A stretch of 64,000 nucleotides of DNA from Escherichia coli. Its GTDB lineage: Bacteria; Pseudomonadota; Gammaproteobacteria; Enterobacterales; Enterobacteriaceae. The notes beneath the pieces were generated by a model. The model was given only the letters and a program-made list of their open reading frames with translations. It did not search any database and was not told where the DNA came from. The position numbers were made by a program, and so were the translations under genes. Below, in pieces: positions 3,087 to 29,951 of this stretch; position 1 is the first letter of the stretch, and the number at the start of each line of letters is the position of its first letter. The stretch lies in NCBI RefSeq assembly GCF_044324785.1, contig NZ_CP172127.1. One strand, given 5' to 3'.

Positions 3087-3162
3087 TGGTGGCCCCTGCT
3101 GGACTTGAACCAGCGACCAAGCGATTATGAGTCGCCTGCTCTAACCACTGAGCTAAGGGGCC
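3087..3162 (-). tRNA. ileX: tRNA-Ile2 (anticodon CAU, lysidine-modified), with encoded CCA
   Basis: Reverse complement reads GGCCCCTTAGCTCAGTGGTTAGAGCAGGCGACTCATAATCGCTTGGTCGCTGGTTCAAGTCCAGCAGGGGCCACCA: cloverleaf with CAT anticodon and 3' CCA. Confidence 0.92.
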
Positions 3163-22509: not shown

Positions 22510-23943
22510 ATGAAAGTAACGCTGCCAGAGTTTGAACGTGCAGGAGTGATGGTGGTTGGTGATGTGATGCTGGATCGTTACTGGTACGGTCCCACCAGCC
22601 GTATCTCGCCGGAAGCGCCGGTGCCCGTGGTTAAAGTAAATACCATCGAAGAACGTCCGGGCGGCGCGGCTAACGTGGCGATGAATATCGCTTCTCTCGG
22701 TGCTAATGCACGCCTGGTCGGGTTGACGGGCATTGACGATGCGGCGCGCGCGCTGAGTAAATCTCTGGCCGACGTCAACGTCAAATGCGACTTCGTTTCT
22801 GTACCGACGCATCCGACCATCACCAAATTACGGGTACTTTCCCGCAACCAACAGCTGATCCGTCTGGATTTTGAAGAAGGTTTCGAAGGGGTTGATCCGC
22901 AGCCGCTGCACGAGCGGATTAATCAGGCGCTGAGTTCGATTGGCGCGCTGGTGCTCTCTGACTACGCGAAAGGTGCGCTGGCAAGCGTGCAGCAGATGAT
23001 CCAACTGGCGCGTAAAGCGGGCGTTCCGGTGCTGATTGATCCAAAAGGTACCGATTTTGAGCGCTACCGCGGCGCTACGCTGTTAACGCCGAATCTCTCG
23101 GAATTTGAAGCTGTTGTCGGTAAATGTAAGACCGAAGAAGAGATTGTTGAACGCGGCATGAAACTGATTGCCGATTACGAACTCTCGGCTCTGTTGGTGA
23201 CCCGTTCCGAACAGGGTATGTCGCTGCTGCAACCGGGTAAAGCGCCGCTGCATATGCCAACCCAGGCGCAGGAAGTGTATGACGTTACCGGTGCGGGCGA
23301 CACGGTGATTGGCGTCCTGGCGGCAACGCTGGCTGCGGGTAATTCACTGGAAGAAGCCTGCTTCTTTGCCAATGCGGCGGCAGGCGTGGTGGTCGGCAAA
23401 CTGGGGACATCCACGGTATCGCCGATCGAGCTGGAAAATGCAGTACGTGGACGTGCAGATACCGGCTTTGGTGTGATGACCGAAGAGGAACTGAAGCTTG
23501 CTGTAGCGGCGGCGCGTAAACGTGGTGAAAAAGTGGTAATGACCAACGGTGTCTTCGATATCCTACATGCCGGGCACGTCTCTTATCTGGCAAATGCCCG
23601 CAAGCTGGGTGACCGCTTGATTGTTGCCGTCAACAGCGATGCCTCCACCAAACGGCTGAAAGGGGATTCCCGCCCCGTTAACCCGCTCGAACAGCGTATG
23701 ATTGTGCTGGGCGCACTGGAAGCGGTCGACTGGGTAGTGTCGTTTGAAGAAGACACGCCGCAGCGCTTGATCGCCGGGATCCTGCCAGACCTGCTGGTGA
23801 AAGGTGGCGACTATAAACCAGAAGAGATTGCCGGGAGTAAAGAAGTCTGGGCCAACGGCGGCGAAGTGTTGGTGCTCAACTTTGAAGACGGTTGCTCGAC
23901 GACCAACATCATCAAGAAGATCCAACAGGATAAAAAAGGCTAA
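22510..23943 (+). CDS. hldE: Bifunctional heptose 7-phosphate kinase / heptose 1-phosphate adenylyltransferase
   Basis: 477 aa; ribokinase-like N-domain and cytidylyltransferase-like C-domain. Confidence 0.96.
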
Positions 23944-24021
23944 CCGGAAAGCGGTTCACAGATCTCGCTTCGAACCTGGCAGGCCTATTGACGCTGTTGT
24001 TTTTTCAACCTAGAGTAAAGG

Positions 24022-24170
24022 AACAAGGGTAAGGGAGGATTTCTCCCCCCTCTGAATTGGTTGTTAATAAGCCTGGAAACTTACTAGTAACAACACAATC
24101 AGTATGATGACGAGCTTCATCATAACCCTTTCCTTCTATAAGGCCCCTTCCTCGGGAGGGGCTTTCCCGT
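24022..24170 (+). ncRNA. sibE: Sib-type antisense sRNA (antitoxin), copy 1; ends approximate
   Basis: Sigma70-like promoter TTGACG-17-TAGAGT at 23988-24016; transcript would be fully complementary to the minus-strand ibs ORF; hairpin gccccttcctcgggaggggc plus T-rich tail near 24145-24170. The D/E label is positional inference from K-12 order. Confidence 0.6.
24064..24123 (-). CDS. ibsE: Ibs-family 19-aa hydrophobic toxin peptide MMKLVIILIVLLLVSFQAY
   Basis: Reverse complement is ATGATGAAGCTCGTCATCATACTGATTGTGTTGTTACTAGTAAGTTTCCAGGCTTATTAA; classic Ibs peptide; the overlapping plus-strand track ORF is an artefact. The D/E label is positional inference. Confidence 0.75.
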   Translation of the reverse strand: MMKLVIILIVLLLVSFQAY

Positions 24171-24397
24171 TTCAGCTCCTTGCTGACTCCCCGATTGTTG
24201 ATGAGCGCCAGACCCCGCGCAACGCTTTCCCAGAGGCAGTTTTCCTTTCCCCGAGCGGTCACGCAAAACGTTGCAACAGCCTGATCATTTGCACCTTTTA
24301 GCGGAACGCAGATATAAAAAATCCCCGGTTTTTTGGGCCAGGGATATGTGTTAATGAAACCTTCTTGACGCTGTTTTTTTTTCAACCTAAAGTAAAG

Positions 24398-24548
24398 GAA
24401 CAAGGGTGAGGGAGGATTTCTCCCCCCTCTGATTGGCTGTTAGTAAGCGTGGAAACTTATCAGTAACAACACAATCAGTATGATGATGAGCTTCATCATA
24501 ACCCTTTCCTTATACAAGGCCCCTTCTTCGGGAGGGGCTTTCCCGTTT
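24398..24548 (+). ncRNA. sibD: Sib-type antisense sRNA (antitoxin), copy 2; ends approximate
   Basis: Promoter TTGACG-17-TAAAGT at 24366-24394; complementary to the second ibs ORF; hairpin ggccccttcttcgggaggggc downstream. Confidence 0.6.
24440..24499 (-). CDS. ibsD: Ibs-family 19-aa hydrophobic toxin peptide MMKLIIILIVLLLISFHAY
   Basis: Reverse complement is ATGATGAAGCTCATCATCATACTGATTGTGTTGTTACTGATAAGTTTCCACGCTTACTAA. Confidence 0.75.
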   Translation of the reverse strand: MMKLIIILIVLLLISFHAY

Positions 24549-26248
24549 CAGCCCCTTGCTGACTTCCCGATTGTTGATGAACGCCGGACCCCGCGCAATG
24601 CTTTCCCAGAGGCAGTTTTGCCTTCCCCGAGCGGTCACGCAAAATGCTGCAACAGCCCGATCATTTGCACTTTTTATCGGAACGCAGATATAAAGAATCC
24701 CCGGCTTTTTGGGCCAGGGATGTTCATAGTTGAAAATTTATTCTACGTTTTCTGCGACGGGAGTTGTTGAGGTTAAGGGGGAAGTCAATGCCGCCAGCGA
24801 GCCGCCTGAAACGCCAATTTCATTGAGTAAGGAGTCAATCAGCGGTGCTTGTGTGCGGTAAGAGAGTGCGGCTGATAACGCTTGTTCCGCCAGGTTTCCG
24901 CCCCCCACATTACCCGTGTTTGCATCACCCGCAGCGCTGCCACGATTCAGACCATCGACCTGAATAATCTTGATACCGTCAATAGATTTCATCGGCTCAA
25001 CGGATTTTTCTATTACCGCAGGTAGCGCCTGCAACAAGGCCAGTTTGAATTTAAGGCTGGTTTGTTCATCAGAAAGTACGTTGATAGCATCGTTCAGCGC
25101 ACGTTGTGCTTCTGCTTCCGCCAGACCCTTTTTACGTGTAGCTTCGGCTAACTCAACGATAGCCGCCGCCTGCATCTCTGCGGCTTCTTTTTCTGCTTTT
25201 GCCCGGACAGTCAGTTCAACTGCTTTGGTTTCTGCATCCTGCGCGGCAGCGATTAGGGCAACTTGTTTAGCACGATCGGCTTCTGCGGTCTGGCGAGTGG
25301 TTTCTACGTTTTGTTGGGCGCTTACTGCTTCTGCGAGTGCAAGGTTAGCACGCGCTTCTGCCTGGGACTGTTGTTCCGATTTGGCGGCAATAGCGATCGA
25401 TTTCGTCTGGTTGGCGATTTCGGTGACCTGCTGCTGTTCGATCTCTTTAATGCGAACTTCACGTTCAGCTTCAACTTTTCTGGAACGGACGGCCTGTTCG
25501 CGGTCGATTTCCGTTTCCTGAATCTGTCGTTCAGCCAGAATTCGCGTCTGCTCTGCTTCCCGACGACGCTCGGCCTCAAAAGCTGCAATTTTCGCATTCT
25601 GCTCAGCGGTACGGGTTTTAACCTGCTGCTCCTGTTCAAGCGTCATAAACGCTTCTTGTTGTTCAATCTCCAGCTTCCGCGAAAGCGCATCACGATTTTT
25701 CTCACGCACCGCAACTTCTACATCCTGTTCAACTTCGTTACGTTCGCGACGACGGCGCTCCGTCTCCTGCGTCAGCTTGGTTAAACCTTCGGCGTCAAAG
25801 GCGTTGTTAGGATTGAAATGTTCTTTCGACGTCTGGTTAAAGTTGGTAAGTGAAACGCTTTCCAGTTCCAGACCGTTTTTCGACAGATCTTCAGCTACGG
25901 TATTTTGTACTCCCTGCACGAAGTTCTCGCGGGTATCCTGTAACTCATGCATGGTCATTTGTGCAGCTGTTGCACGGAGGGCATCGACGAATTTATCTTC
26001 AACCAACATACGTAAATCTTCTGGTGATAGCGTGCGTTGCCCCAACGTTTGGGCAGCGGTGGCAATCCCTTCTACTGAAGGTTTTACCCGCACAAAGAAA
26101 GCGACTACTACATCGACGCGCATACGATCTTTCGTAATCAGGCTATCAATGGTTGAGCGGCTGACTTCCAGCTTCAGAGTATTCATATTGATGGGGATTA
26201 TTTCATGAAAGATCGGCATCACGATTGCGCCACCGCTCATTACCACTT

Positions 26249-26257
26249 TTTGCCCAC
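26249..26257. repeat. Target-site duplication TTTGCCCAC (left copy)
   Basis: Identical 9-mer directly abuts both ends of the IS (26249-26257 and 27315-27323). Confidence 0.9.
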
Positions 26258-27314
26258 GGCTTTGTTGAATAAATCAGATTTCGGGTAAGTCTCCCCCGTA
26301 GCGGGTTGTGTTTTCAGGCAATACGCACGCTTTCAGGCATACCTGCTTTCGTCATTTTGTTCAGCGCTCGTACCAGGGCCATAGCCTCCGCAACCTGACC
26401 ATCGTAGTCACGCAGCGTCAGTGAACCCCCGAACAGCTGTTTTACCCGGTACATCGCCGTTTCCGCTATCGAGCGACGGTTGTAATCTGTTGTCCATTTC
26501 CACCGCGCATTACTCCCGGTCATTCGCTGATTAGCCACTGCACGGTTACGGTCTGCATATTCACCGGGCCAGTAACCCGCACCTTTTCGGGGAGGGATAA
26601 GCGCGCTGATTTTCTTACGCCGCAGTTCATCGTGACATAGCCGGGTATCGTAAGCGCCATCGGCGGCGGCTGACCTGATTTTCCGGTGGGTTTGCCGGAT
26701 TAACCCGGGGAAGGCCTCTGAGTCCGTAACGTTGTTCAGCGACAGGTCAGCGCAGATGATTTCATGTGTTTTACTGTCAACGGCGAGATGCAGCTTACGC
26801 CAGATACGGCGGCGTTCCTGGCCATGCTTTTTGACTTTCCACTCGCCTTCACCGAAGACCTTCAGCCCGGTGGAATCAATTACCAGGTGTGCGATTTCAC
26901 CCCGGGTGGGCGTTTTGAAACTGACATTAACCGACTTTGCCCGCCTGCTGACACAGCTGTAATCCGGGCAGCGTAGCGGAACGTTCATCAGAGAAAAAAT
27001 GGAATCAATAAAGCCCTGCGCAGCCCGCAGGGTCAGCCTGAATACGCGTTTAATGACCAGCACAGTAGTGATGGCAAGGTCAGAATAGCGCTGAGGTCTG
27101 CCTCGTGAAGAAGGTGTTGCTGACTCATACCAGGCCTGAATAGCTTCATCATCCAGCCAGAAAGTTATGGAGCCACGGTTGATGAGGGCTTTATTGTAGG
27201 TGGGCCAGTTGGTGATTTTGAACTTTTGCTTTGCCACGGAACGGTCTGCGTTGTCGGGAAGATACGTGATCTGATCCTTCAACTCAGCAAAAGTTCGATT
27301 TATTCAACAAAGCC
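26258..27314 (-). mobile_element. IS903-group insertion sequence (IS5 family), 1057 bp with 18-bp terminal inverted repeats GGCTTTGTTGAATAAATC
   Basis: Left IR at 26258-26275, right IR (reverse complement) at 27297-27314; length exactly 1057 bp; single transposase ORF; 9-bp TSD as expected for IS903. Confidence 0.93.
26314..27282 (-). CDS. IS903-type DDE transposase
   Basis: 322-aa ORF (TTG start in track) MKDQITYLPDNADRSVAKQKFKITNWPTYNKALINRGSITFWLDD...; lies within the IS boundaries. Confidence 0.9.
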   Translation of the reverse strand: MKDQITYLPDNADRSVAKQKFKITNWPTYNKALINRGSITFWLDDEAIQAWYESATPSSRGRPQRYSDLAITTVLVIKRVFRLTLRAAQGFIDSIFSLMNVPLRCPDYSCVSRRAKSVNVSFKTPTRGEIAHLVIDSTGLKVFGEGEWKVKKHGQERRRIWRKLHLAVDSKTHEIICADLSLNNVTDSEAFPGLIRQTHRKIRSAAADGAYDTRLCHDELRRKKISALIPPRKGAGYWPGEYADRNRAVANQRMTGSNARWKWTTDYNRRSIAETAMYRVKQLFGGSLTLRDYDGQVAEAMALVRALNKMTKAGMPESVRIA

Positions 27315-27323
27315 TTTGCCCAC
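27315..27323. repeat. Target-site duplication TTTGCCCAC (right copy)
   Basis: See left copy. Confidence 0.9.
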
Positions 27324-29044: not shown

Positions 29045-29290
29045 CGCTTATTCTCAGGGCGGGGCGAAATTCCCCACCGGCGGTAAATCAACTCAGTTGA
29101 AAGCCCGCGAGCGCTTTGGGTGCGAACTCAAAGGACAGCAGATCCGGTGTAATTCCGGGGCCGACGGTTAGAGTCCGGATGGGAGAGAGTAACGATTCTG
29201 TCGGGCATGGACCCGCTCACGTTATTTTGGCTATATGCCGCCACTCCTAAGACTGCCCTGATTCTGGTAACCATAATTTTAGTGAGGTTT
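29045..29290 (+). ncRNA. FMN riboswitch (RFN element) and ribB leader
   Basis: Conserved RFN core AGGGCGGGGCGAAATTCCCCACCGGCGGTAAA...AGCCCGCGAGCGC...CAGATCCGGTGTAATTCCGGGGCCGACGGTTAGAGTCCGGATGGGAGAG directly upstream of ribB. Confidence 0.85.
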
Positions 29291-29297
29291 TTTTACC

Positions 29298-29951
29298 ATG
29301 AATCAGACGCTACTTTCCTCTTTTGGTACGCCTTTCGAACGTGTTGAAAATGCACTGGCTGCGCTGCGTGAAGGACGCGGTGTAATGGTGCTTGATGATG
29401 AAGACCGTGAAAACGAAGGCGATATGATCTTCCCGGCAGAAACCATGACCGTTGAGCAGATGGCGCTGACCATTCGCCACGGTAGCGGTATTGTTTGCCT
29501 GTGCATTACTGAAGATCGCCGTAAACAACTCGATCTGCCAATGATGGTAGAAAATAACACCAGCGCCTATGGCACCGGTTTTACCGTGACCATTGAAGCG
29601 GCTGAAGGTGTGACTACCGGTGTTTCTGCCGCTGACCGTATTACGACCGTTCGCGCAGCGATTGCCGATGGCGCAAAACCGTCAGATCTGAATCGCCCAG
29701 GCCACGTTTTCCCACTTCGCGCTCAGGCTGGTGGTGTACTGACGCGTGGCGGCCATACTGAAGCGACTATTGATCTGATGACGCTGGCAGGCTTTAAACC
29801 GGCTGGTGTGCTGTGTGAGCTGACTAATGACGATGGCACGATGGCGCGTGCACCAGAGTGCATTGAGTTTGCCAATAAACACAATATGGCGCTCGTGACT
29901 ATTGAAGACCTGGTGGCATACCGTCAGGCACATGAGCGTAAAGCCAGCTGA
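29298..29951 (+). CDS. ribB: 3,4-dihydroxy-2-butanone 4-phosphate synthase
   Basis: 217 aa; [42 protein letters not shown]... Confidence 0.96.

What the first reader, a model, noticed from the sequence alone, without database searches (positions are those of the whole stretch)
23985..24740. Tandem duplicated ibs/sib type I toxin-antitoxin units downstream of hldE
Two ~378-bp direct repeats each encode, on the minus strand, a 19-aa hydrophobic Ibs-type peptide (MMKLVIILIVLLLVSFQAY and MMKLIIILIVLLLISFHAY) and, on the plus strand, a promoter (TTGACG-17-TAGAGT or TAAAGT) positioned to make a fully complementary Sib antisense RNA. The plus-strand ORFs in the track over these loci are artefacts. 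The two peptides differ at three positions (I5, V14/I14, Q17/H17), and the copies also differ in the antisense region, so each pair may be specific for its own partner.
Basis: partly seen in the sequence, partly recalled or inferred. Interest (0 to 1): 0.4.

Follow-up and report, generated by a model that had tools for sequence, protein, structure and literature searches.

The report
Known Sib/Ibs toxin-antitoxin tandem pair

Summary
Two direct repeats lie 376-377 bp apart and are 90-96% identical. Each gives a full-length Rfam SIB_RNA match on the + strand (141.8 and 150.2 bits; gathering score 56). Each also carries an intact 19-codon ORF on the - strand that passes Pfam Ibs_toxin (44 and 39.5 bits; cut-off 27). 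The position, between hldE and yqiK, is that of sibE/ibsE and sibD/ibsD in E. coli K-12. The locus is found in 5,425 of 5,426 complete E. coli genomes, and RefSeq already annotates peptides identical to these as Ibs family toxins. The plus-strand ORFs are artefacts: they match no family and their frames break in K-12.

[quoted passage not shown] It is not proven here, because the two copies differ less in TRD1 than K-12 SibD and SibE do.

Three minor extras turned up. The alleles are uncommon and mosaic relative to K-12. Some strains carry only one unit. A terminator-like hairpin is part of each repeat.

Verdict: already known, low interest.

The parts
23988..24364 (.). Repeat unit 1 (next to hldE; the position of sibE/ibsE in K-12)
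   Evidence: Direct-repeat families D1 and D2, spacing 376-377 bp. Aligns with the K-12 sibE unit.
24365..24737 (.). Repeat unit 2 (next to yqiK; the position of sibD/ibsD in K-12). It ends at the yqiK stop codon (24738-24740).
   Evidence: yqiK ORF end.
23988..24016 (+). Sib-1 promoter, TTGACG-17-TAGAGT
   Evidence: Promoter scan. Identical in K-12 sibE. It lies 7 nt before the start mapped from K-12.
24023..24167 (+). Sib-1 antisense RNA, 145 nt. Ends were transferred from the K-12 sibE annotation. TRD1 is about 24070-24092, TRD2 about 24123-24141, and the terminator hairpin about 24140-24165.
   Evidence: Rfam RF00113, 141.8 bits, covering 23988-24138 (the model includes the promoter). K-12 coordinates mapped through alignments. 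Fold -54.7 kcal/mol, z = -4.9, with a closing stem, three hairpins, a single-stranded linker and a terminator hairpin.
24064..24123 (-). ibs-1 ORF, 19 codons plus stop: MMKLVIILIVLLLVSFQAY. The Shine-Dalgarno-like AAGGAAAGGG lies just upstream (24126-24135, - strand).
   Evidence: Translation. Pfam PF13956, 44 bits vs cut-off 27. The identical peptide is annotated in E. coli N3 as an Ibs family toxin, WP_071528379.1.
24194..24222 (-). Inferred ibs-1 promoter (TTGCGC-17-AACAAT), with a predicted start near 24187
   Evidence: Inference. The motif is conserved in both window units and in K-12 ibsD, and there is an aligned TTGTGT...TACGAT in ibsC. The position fits the 163-nt ibsD mRNA of Han et al. 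2010. It falls below the promoter tool's threshold.
24321..24345 (-). Terminator-like hairpin inside the repeat: ATCCCTGG-CCCAAAAAA-CCGGGGAT followed by TTTTTATAT. It duplicates the yqiK terminator and lies between ibs-2 and the ibs-1 promoter.
   Evidence: Read from the sequence. It is the repeat partner of the hairpin at 24697-24721. The tool missed it because its loop is 9 nt.
24365..24393 (+). Sib-2 promoter, TTGACG-17-TAAAGT
   Evidence: The hexamers are identical in K-12 sibD.
24400..24543 (+). Sib-2 antisense RNA, 144 nt. TRD1 is about 24446-24468 and TRD2 about 24499-24517.
   Evidence: Rfam RF00113, 150.2 bits, covering 24365-24514. Ends mapped from K-12 sibD. Fold -57.0 kcal/mol, z = -4.1.
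24440..24499 (-). ibs-2 ORF, 19 codons plus stop: MMKLIIILIVLLLISFHAY
   Evidence: Translation. Pfam PF13956, 39.5 bits. The identical peptide is annotated as WP_105461410.1 in E. coli N3 and Ecol_316.
24570..24598 (-). Inferred ibs-2 promoter (TTGCGC-17-AACAAT), with a predicted start near 24563
   Evidence: Inference, on the same grounds as for unit 1.
24697..24721 (-). Terminator-like hairpin directly after the yqiK stop codon (9 pairs, 6 G-C, then TCTTTATATC)
   Evidence: Terminator scan.
23942..23956 (-). Small terminator-like hairpin on the - strand, overlapping the hldE stop codon and followed by AGCCTTTTTT. It may end ibs-1 transcripts.
   Evidence: Terminator scan. The role is inferred.

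Best explanation
The region holds two tandem copies of the Sib/Ibs type I toxin-antitoxin module. It is the Escherichia locus that K-12 annotates as sibE/ibsE (next to hldE) and sibD/ibsD (next to yqiK).

In each 377-bp unit the - strand encodes an ibs mRNA. It has a weak promoter, a 5' UTR of about 64 nt and a 19-codon ORF for a hydrophobic inner-membrane peptide. That peptide depolarises the membrane and lowers ATP when made in excess.

The + strand carries a near-consensus sigma-70 promoter that makes a Sib RNA of about 145 nt. This RNA is perfectly complementary to the ibs ribosome-binding site, the whole ORF and most of the 5' UTR.

Sib nucleates pairing through two exposed segments. TRD1 is a hairpin loop opposite codons 11-18. 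TRD2 is a single-stranded linker opposite the start codon and Shine-Dalgarno sequence. Pairing blocks translation and exposes the duplex to RNase III, so the toxin stays off while Sib is made.

The two copies differ mainly in and near TRD1 and TRD2. By analogy with K-12, this should bias each Sib towards its own ibs.

Shown here: the sequence features, family membership, synteny and conservation of the ORF. Taken from the literature or inferred: transcription, toxicity, the repression mechanism and specificity.
For: Family membership:
- Two full-length SIB_RNA matches far above the gathering score.
- Both peptides pass Pfam Ibs_toxin.

Synteny and prior annotation:
- Same position and anatomy as the annotated K-12 sibD/ibsD and sibE/ibsE.
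- The locus is present in 5,425 of 5,426 complete E. coli genomes.
- RefSeq annotates identical peptides as Ibs family toxins in strain N3.

Expression signals and structure:
- Both Sib promoters are detected.
- The Sib folds have the closing stem, loops, linker and terminator described by Han et al. (z = -4.9 and -4.1).

ORF conservation:
- All 20 units sampled from 11 genomes keep an intact 19-codon ORF despite 7 different peptide alleles.
- The overlapping + strand ORFs break frame.

Literature:
- Mechanism and specificity: Han et al. 2010, PMC2943612, and the reviews PMC4147584 and PMC8309996.
- The single unit at the same yqiK-rfaE(hldE) site in Salmonella is an experimentally shown 19-aa toxin that inhibits the Fo sector of ATP synthase, and it is repressed from its Sib promoter (bioRxiv 10.1101/2025.05.26.656083).
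Against: There is no expression data for this organism. The ibs promoter is inferred from weak hexamers (3/6 and 4/6) that the promoter scan did not call. NCBIfam gave no Ibs hit, although the library may simply hold no model for a 19-residue peptide, since Pfam does match. Specificity of each Sib for its own ibs is less certain than in K-12, because TRD1 differs at only 3 positions.
Confidence: 0.95

Rival explanations
1. The two modules are not insulated from each other. Because they differ little in TRD1 and TRD2, each Sib also represses the other ibs. The pair would then act as a redundant double dose rather than two private toxin-antitoxin pairs.
For: Sib-1 and Sib-2 differ at only 3 columns in TRD1 and 2 in TRD2, against 5 and 3 for K-12 SibD/SibE. 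Non-cognate TRD1 duplexes are still predicted at -25.5 and -28.5 kcal/mol, against -17.5 and -19.4 in K-12. In K-12, ibsA is reported to be recognised by non-cognate Sib RNAs.
Against: In Han et al. a 3-nt change in TRD1, or the TRD2 swap, was enough to redirect SibC to ibsD. The differences here fall in the same loop and linker segments.
Confidence: 0.3
2. The repeats are decaying relics of an intergenic repeat family, and their ibs genes are no longer expressed or toxic.
For: The ibs promoter hexamers are weak. Some E. coli strains have lost one unit.
Against: All 20 sampled units keep exactly 19 codons, a start codon, a Shine-Dalgarno sequence and a hydrophobic core despite many nucleotide changes. 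The Sib promoters are near-consensus and conserved. Both CM and HMM scores are far above threshold.
Confidence: 0.04
3. The plus-strand ORFs (65 aa at 24104-24301 and 96 aa at 24480-24770) are real protein genes, and the Sib signal is incidental.
For: The ORFs exist and start with ATG.
Against: They match no Pfam or NCBIfam family. Their lengths differ between the two copies. In K-12 the frames are broken by indels, giving 59 aa with a different tail and 27 aa. Each begins inside a structured RNA that scores 140-150 bits as Sib.
Confidence: 0.01

Closest known systems
E. coli K-12 sibE/ibsE and sibD/ibsD (b4611/b4666, b4447/b4664)
   Same: Same site between hldE and yqiK and the same tandem arrangement with about 376-bp spacing. 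The Sib promoter hexamers are identical, and so are the Sib 5' stems and terminators. The ORFs are 19 codons. Overall identity is 93%.
   Different: The peptide alleles differ...VSFQAY and MMKLIIIL...ISFHAY here, against IbsE ...LLSFPTY and IbsD ...VSFAAY in K-12. The TRD1 and TRD2 segments are mosaic relative to K-12: the window's Sib-2 carries the K-12 SibE form of TRD2, and its Sib-1 carries a SibD-like TRD2.
E. coli strain N3 (NZ_CP031609.1) ibs pair, WP_071528379.1 and WP_105461410.1
   Same: 98.9% identity over the whole intergenic region, with both peptides identical and already annotated as Ibs family toxins.
   Different: Nine mismatches in 821 bp. N3 has an intact yqiK, whereas the window's yqiK carries an insertion sequence.
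Salmonella Typhimurium ibsA/sibA at yqiK-rfaE
   Same: Same chromosomal site, with a 19-aa toxin and an overlapping Sib antisense RNA. Function has been shown by experiment.
   Different: Salmonella has a single unit where the window has two. Residues important for its activity include His3, whereas the window peptides have Lys3 (outline).
K-12 sibA/ibsA, sibB/ibsB and sibC/ibsC
   Same: Homology runs from the Sib -35 hexamer to about 20 nt past the Sib terminator.
   Different: The roughly 190 bp on the ibs-upstream side of each window unit (24180-24360), which includes the ibs promoter, is shared only with the K-12 D and E units, not with A, B or C.

Membership tests
Sib RNA (Rfam RF00113, SIB_RNA) | Match to the covariance model (sequence plus structure) at or above the gathering score | tested here: met
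   141.8 and 150.2 bits against a gathering score of 56, with all 147 model positions matched.
Sib RNA (Rfam RF00113, SIB_RNA) | Encoded exactly opposite an ibs ORF, covering its ribosome-binding site and the whole coding region | tested here: met
   Sib-1 (24023-24167) contains ibs-1 (24064-24123) and its Shine-Dalgarno sequence. Sib-2 (24400-24543) contains ibs-2 (24440-24499).
Sib RNA (Rfam RF00113, SIB_RNA) | Own promoter and intrinsic terminator giving a transcript of about 140 nt | tested here: met
   Consensus-like promoters. G+C-rich terminal hairpin followed by CUUUCC. Lengths of 145 and 144 nt by transfer from the K-12 annotation. Actual transcription was not tested.
Sib RNA (Rfam RF00113, SIB_RNA) | Represses its cognate ibs mRNA | not testable with these tools
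   Only duplex energies could be computed. The function is known from K-12 and Salmonella.
Ibs toxin (Pfam PF13956) | Match to the family HMM above the gathering score | tested here: met
   44.0 and 39.5 bits against a cut-off of 27, with profile positions 1-19 of 19 matched. NCBIfam gave no Ibs hit.
Ibs toxin (Pfam PF13956) | Hydrophobic peptide of 18-19 residues with a conserved reading frame | tested here: met
   All 20 units from 11 genomes have 19 codons, across 7 alleles.
Ibs toxin (Pfam PF13956) | Toxic when over-produced (growth arrest, membrane depolarisation, ATP drop) | not testable with these tools
   Taken from the literature only.
Orthologues of K-12 sibD/ibsD and sibE/ibsE | Same chromosomal position between hldE and yqiK | tested here: met
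Orthologues of K-12 sibD/ibsD and sibE/ibsE | Each copy is closest in sequence to its positional counterpart | tested here: inconclusive
   Sib-1 differs from SibE at 12 columns and from SibD at 10. Sib-2 differs from SibD at 11 and from SibE at 10. The same core allele occupies either slot in different strains (DG351-2).

The most novel reading that the evidence does not exclude
The recognition segments (TRD1, which also sets the toxin's C-terminal residues, and TRD2) may be reshuffled between the two tandem slots and between strains by gene conversion or recombination, producing new Sib/ibs specificity combinations.

The sampled genomes are consistent with this. All four combinations of two TRD1 and two TRD2 variants occur. 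The window's unit-1 core sits in the other slot in strain DG351-2. The window's allele pair is uncommon: the unit-1 core is at least 99% identical in 264 of 5,426 genomes, and the unit-2 core in 32.

If this diversity is maintained by selection, the locus would be a small natural experiment in how antisense specificity evolves.
Probability: 0.3. Interest if true: 0.3.

Novelty: already known. Interest (0 to 1): 0.08.

Why it matters
It matters little beyond correct annotation. Gene callers miss the 19-codon toxins and instead call spurious ORFs on the opposite strand, so recognising the locus removes two or three false genes and adds two real peptides and two small RNAs. The allele mosaic and the variation between one and two units could feed a population study of how antisense RNAs keep or lose partner specificity. 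That would extend published work rather than open something new.

Tried and rejected
- NCBIfam scan of both peptides (with a few upstream residues, to reach the 20-residue minimum) found no Ibs model. It gave only sub-threshold chance hits. Pfam did match.
- A permissive Rfam scan of 23900-24800 added nothing real. It returned sub-threshold reverse-strand echoes of SIB_RNA (37.7 and 33.8 bits against 56) and a chance mir-7 hit.
- The primary paper by Fozo et al. 2008 (PMC2597788) is not held, and the supplement of Han et al. is not held. The mapped ibs transcription start could therefore not be read directly. The ibs promoter is inferred from motif conservation and from the published mRNA lengths of 159 and 163 nt.
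- The promoter tool found no - strand promoter at its threshold.
- The plus-strand ORFs and the 132-aa - strand ORF at 24005-24403 were considered as genes and rejected. The plus-strand ORFs match no family and their frames are not conserved. The 132-aa ORF has no counterpart in unit 2.
- I did not use the costly genome or metagenome scans, or structure prediction. The identification did not need them.

Full report

Yes. The region from 23988 to 24737 consists of two direct repeat units spaced 376-377 bp apart. The first 68 nt of each unit are 96% identical and the next 300 nt are 90% identical. These are the only long repeats in the whole 64-kb window.

On the - strand, 24064-24123 translates to MMKLVIILIVLLLVSFQAY* and 24440-24499 to MMKLIIILIVLLLISFHAY*.

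On the + strand, the promoter scan finds TTGACG-17-TAGAGT (23988-24016) and TTGACG-17-TAAAGT (24365-24393). It found 3 promoter-like sites against 0.7 expected from shuffles.

**2. What is it?**

A scan of the whole window against Rfam gives two full-length SIB_RNA (RF00113) matches on the + strand. They lie at 23988-24138 (141.8 bits) and 24365-24514 (150.2 bits), against a gathering score of 56. The Rfam model begins at the -35 hexamer, so the hit coordinates include the promoter. Both peptides pass Pfam Ibs_toxin (PF13956) at 44.0 and 39.5 bits against a cut-off of 27, over all 19 profile positions.

The neighbours are hldE (22510-23943, + strand) and yqiK (ending at 24738, - strand). In E. 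coli K-12 the same intergenic space is annotated as yqiK - sibD/ibsD - sibE/ibsE - hldE. The alignment is collinear throughout.

The 821-bp region has a match in 5,425 of 5,426 complete E. coli genomes. In strain N3 it is 98.9% identical, and both peptides there are identical to the window's and annotated as "type I toxin-antitoxin system Ibs family toxin".

**3. Anatomy**

Transferring the K-12 sibE and sibD ends through the alignments gives Sib-1 at 24023-24167 (145 nt) and Sib-2 at 24400-24543 (144 nt). Each starts 7 nt after its -10 hexamer.

Both RNAs fold well below shuffled controls (-54.7 and -57.0 kcal/mol; z = -4.9 and -4.1). The fold has a closing stem, three internal hairpins, a single-stranded linker and a G+C-rich terminal hairpin. 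This is the architecture described for SibC.

Each Sib covers its ibs ORF, the Shine-Dalgarno-like AAGGAAAGGG and most of the ibs 5' UTR.

The ibs promoters are inferred, not shown. A conserved TTGCGC-17-AACAAT lies on the - strand at 24222-24194 and at 24598-24570. It is also present before K-12 ibsD and aligns with TTGTGT...TACGAT before ibsC. It would put the ibs starts near 24187 and 24563. That fits the 163-nt ibsD mRNA and the "conserved promoter elements" reported by Han et al.. The hexamers are weak, and the promoter tool did not call them.

Comparison with all five K-12 units shows how far family-wide homology extends. It runs from the Sib -35 hexamer to about 20 nt beyond the Sib terminator. 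The remaining roughly 190 bp of each unit is shared only with the K-12 D and E units.

That D/E-specific part ends in a - strand terminator-like hairpin. One copy lies directly after the yqiK stop codon (24721-24697). Its duplicate lies at 24345-24321, between ibs-2 and the ibs-1 promoter. A further small - strand hairpin with a T-run overlaps the hldE stop codon (23956-23942). I infer that these hairpins stop - strand read-through from yqiK into ibs-2 and from ibs-2 into ibs-1.

**4. The plus-strand ORFs**

The 65-aa and 96-aa + strand ORFs start at the ATGATGA that is antisense to the ibs start codons. They match no Pfam or NCBIfam family. They differ in length between the two copies. In K-12 indels turn them into a 59-aa product with a different tail and a 27-aa product.

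By contrast, all 20 ibs units sampled from 11 genomes keep exactly 19 codons.

**5. How it works**

The mechanism is taken from the literature. Sib RNAs are made constitutively and repress the ibs mRNAs encoded opposite them. Excess Ibs damages the envelope and is lethal.

SibC has two independent target-recognition domains. TRD1 (+46 to +68) is a hairpin loop that pairs inside the ORF. TRD2 (+99 to +115) is a single-stranded linker that pairs with the translation initiation region. Pairing spreads outward from these sites. Swapping either domain for that of SibD redirects SibC to ibsD.

Repression blocks ribosome binding, and the duplex is probably processed by RNase III. Over-produced IbsC depolarises the membrane within minutes.

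In Salmonella, the single unit at this same yqiK-rfaE(hldE) site encodes a verified 19-aa toxin. It binds the a and b subunits of Fo and lowers ATP. Mutating the Sib promoter removes the antisense RNA.

**6. Specificity of the two copies**

Sib-1 and Sib-2 differ at 11 alignment columns. Three lie in TRD1, two in TRD2, and several more sit just beside them. The TRD1 differences also produce the V14/I14 and Q17/H17 peptide differences.

| Pairing | Window, cognate (kcal/mol) | Window, non-cognate | K-12 SibD/SibE, cognate | K-12, non-cognate |
|---|---|---|---|---|
| TRD1 | about -38 | -25.5 and -28.5 | -39.2 and -37.6 | -17.5 and -19.4 |
| TRD2 | about -28 | -20.2 and -21.9 | -30.2 and -28.1 | -19.6 and -20.2 |

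K-12 SibD and SibE, which are reported to discriminate, differ at 5 positions in TRD1 and 3 in TRD2. I give partial cross-repression about a 30% chance.

**7. Variation between strains**

- **Organism.** The window is not identical to any sampled genome. hldE is at best 98.3% identical to any complete E. coli genome, and a 24-kb stretch is at best about 97-98% identical. The source is an Escherichia lineage slightly apart from the sequenced strains.
- **Divergence.** The intergenic region is 90-95% identical to most strains.
- **Allele frequency.** The 101-nt core of unit 1 is at least 99% identical in 264 of 5,426 genomes, and the core of unit 2 in 32.
- **Mosaic alleles.** In 11 genomes I found 7 peptide alleles. 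TRD1 and TRD2 haplotypes occur in all four combinations (K12_1, RM13516_1, K12_2 and DG351-2_1). The window's unit-1 core sits in the yqiK-proximal slot in strain DG351-2. This points to recombination or gene conversion between the units.
- **Copy number.** Eight of 40 evenly sampled genomes show a single unit at this site. Two of them were inspected directly.

**8. Comparison and verdict**

This is the known sibD/ibsD - sibE/ibsE locus with uncommon but already annotated alleles. Every membership feature that can be tested here is met. One-to-one orthology of each copy with K-12 D or E is inconclusive because of the mosaic. Expression, toxicity and repression cannot be tested with these tools.

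Novelty: already known. Interest: low.

Noticed in passing
window 26249-27323: An insertion sequence of the IS5 family, IS903-like from my memory of its 1057-bp length, splits yqiK about 48 codons from its start. The element spans 26258-27314 (1057 bp) and has terminal inverted repeats at 26258-26290 and 27282-27314. A 9-bp target duplication, TTTGCCCAC, lies at 26249-26257 and 27315-27323. The transposase ORF is at 26314-27282 (- strand) and matches Pfam DDE_Tnp_1_5 and DDE_Tnp_1. E. coli N3 is uninterrupted at this point.
   Followed up: yes
window 24321-24345 and 24697-24721 (- strand): The yqiK terminator-like hairpin is part of the 377-bp repeat, so it is present twice. The second copy lies between ibs-2 and the ibs-1 promoter and may insulate the two toxin genes from read-through. 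It pairs better on the - strand (a G-U wobble) than on the + strand (a C-A mismatch).
   Followed up: partly
L010 (E. coli KN12-1) and L011 (SCU-176), between hldE and yqiK: Copy number varies at this locus. These genomes carry one Sib/ibs unit instead of two, as did 8 of 40 evenly sampled genomes.
   Followed up: partly
L008 (E. coli DG351-2) 229-288 and 606-665; L005-L012: Alleles move between slots and TRD modules are mosaic. The window's unit-1 peptide (...VSFQAY) sits in the yqiK-proximal slot in DG351-2. The K-12 IbsD allele sits in that strain's hldE-proximal slot. TRD1 and TRD2 variants occur in all four combinations across strains.
   Followed up: partly
window 12000-36000: The window is only about 97-98% identical to the best of 5,426 complete E. 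coli genomes over 24 kb, and hldE is at best 98.3% identical. The source seems to be an Escherichia lineage slightly outside the sequenced strains. The many extra hits on plasmids probably come from the insertion sequence.
   Followed up: no
window 29046-29194 (+): An FMN riboswitch (Rfam RF00050, 120.9 bits) lies upstream of a 217-aa ORF at 29298-29951. From its position near yqiJ, glgS and ubiK in E. coli, the ORF is presumably ribB.
   Followed up: no
window 3090-3162 (-): A tRNA gene (73.1 bits) whose anticodon loop reads CUCAUAA, giving a CAU anticodon.
   Followed up: no
window 24005-24403 (-): A 132-aa TTG-start ORF spans unit 1 in a different frame from ibs. Unit 2 has no counterpart (only 42- and 48-aa fragments), so it is most likely another artefact of the ORF track.
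   Followed up: partly
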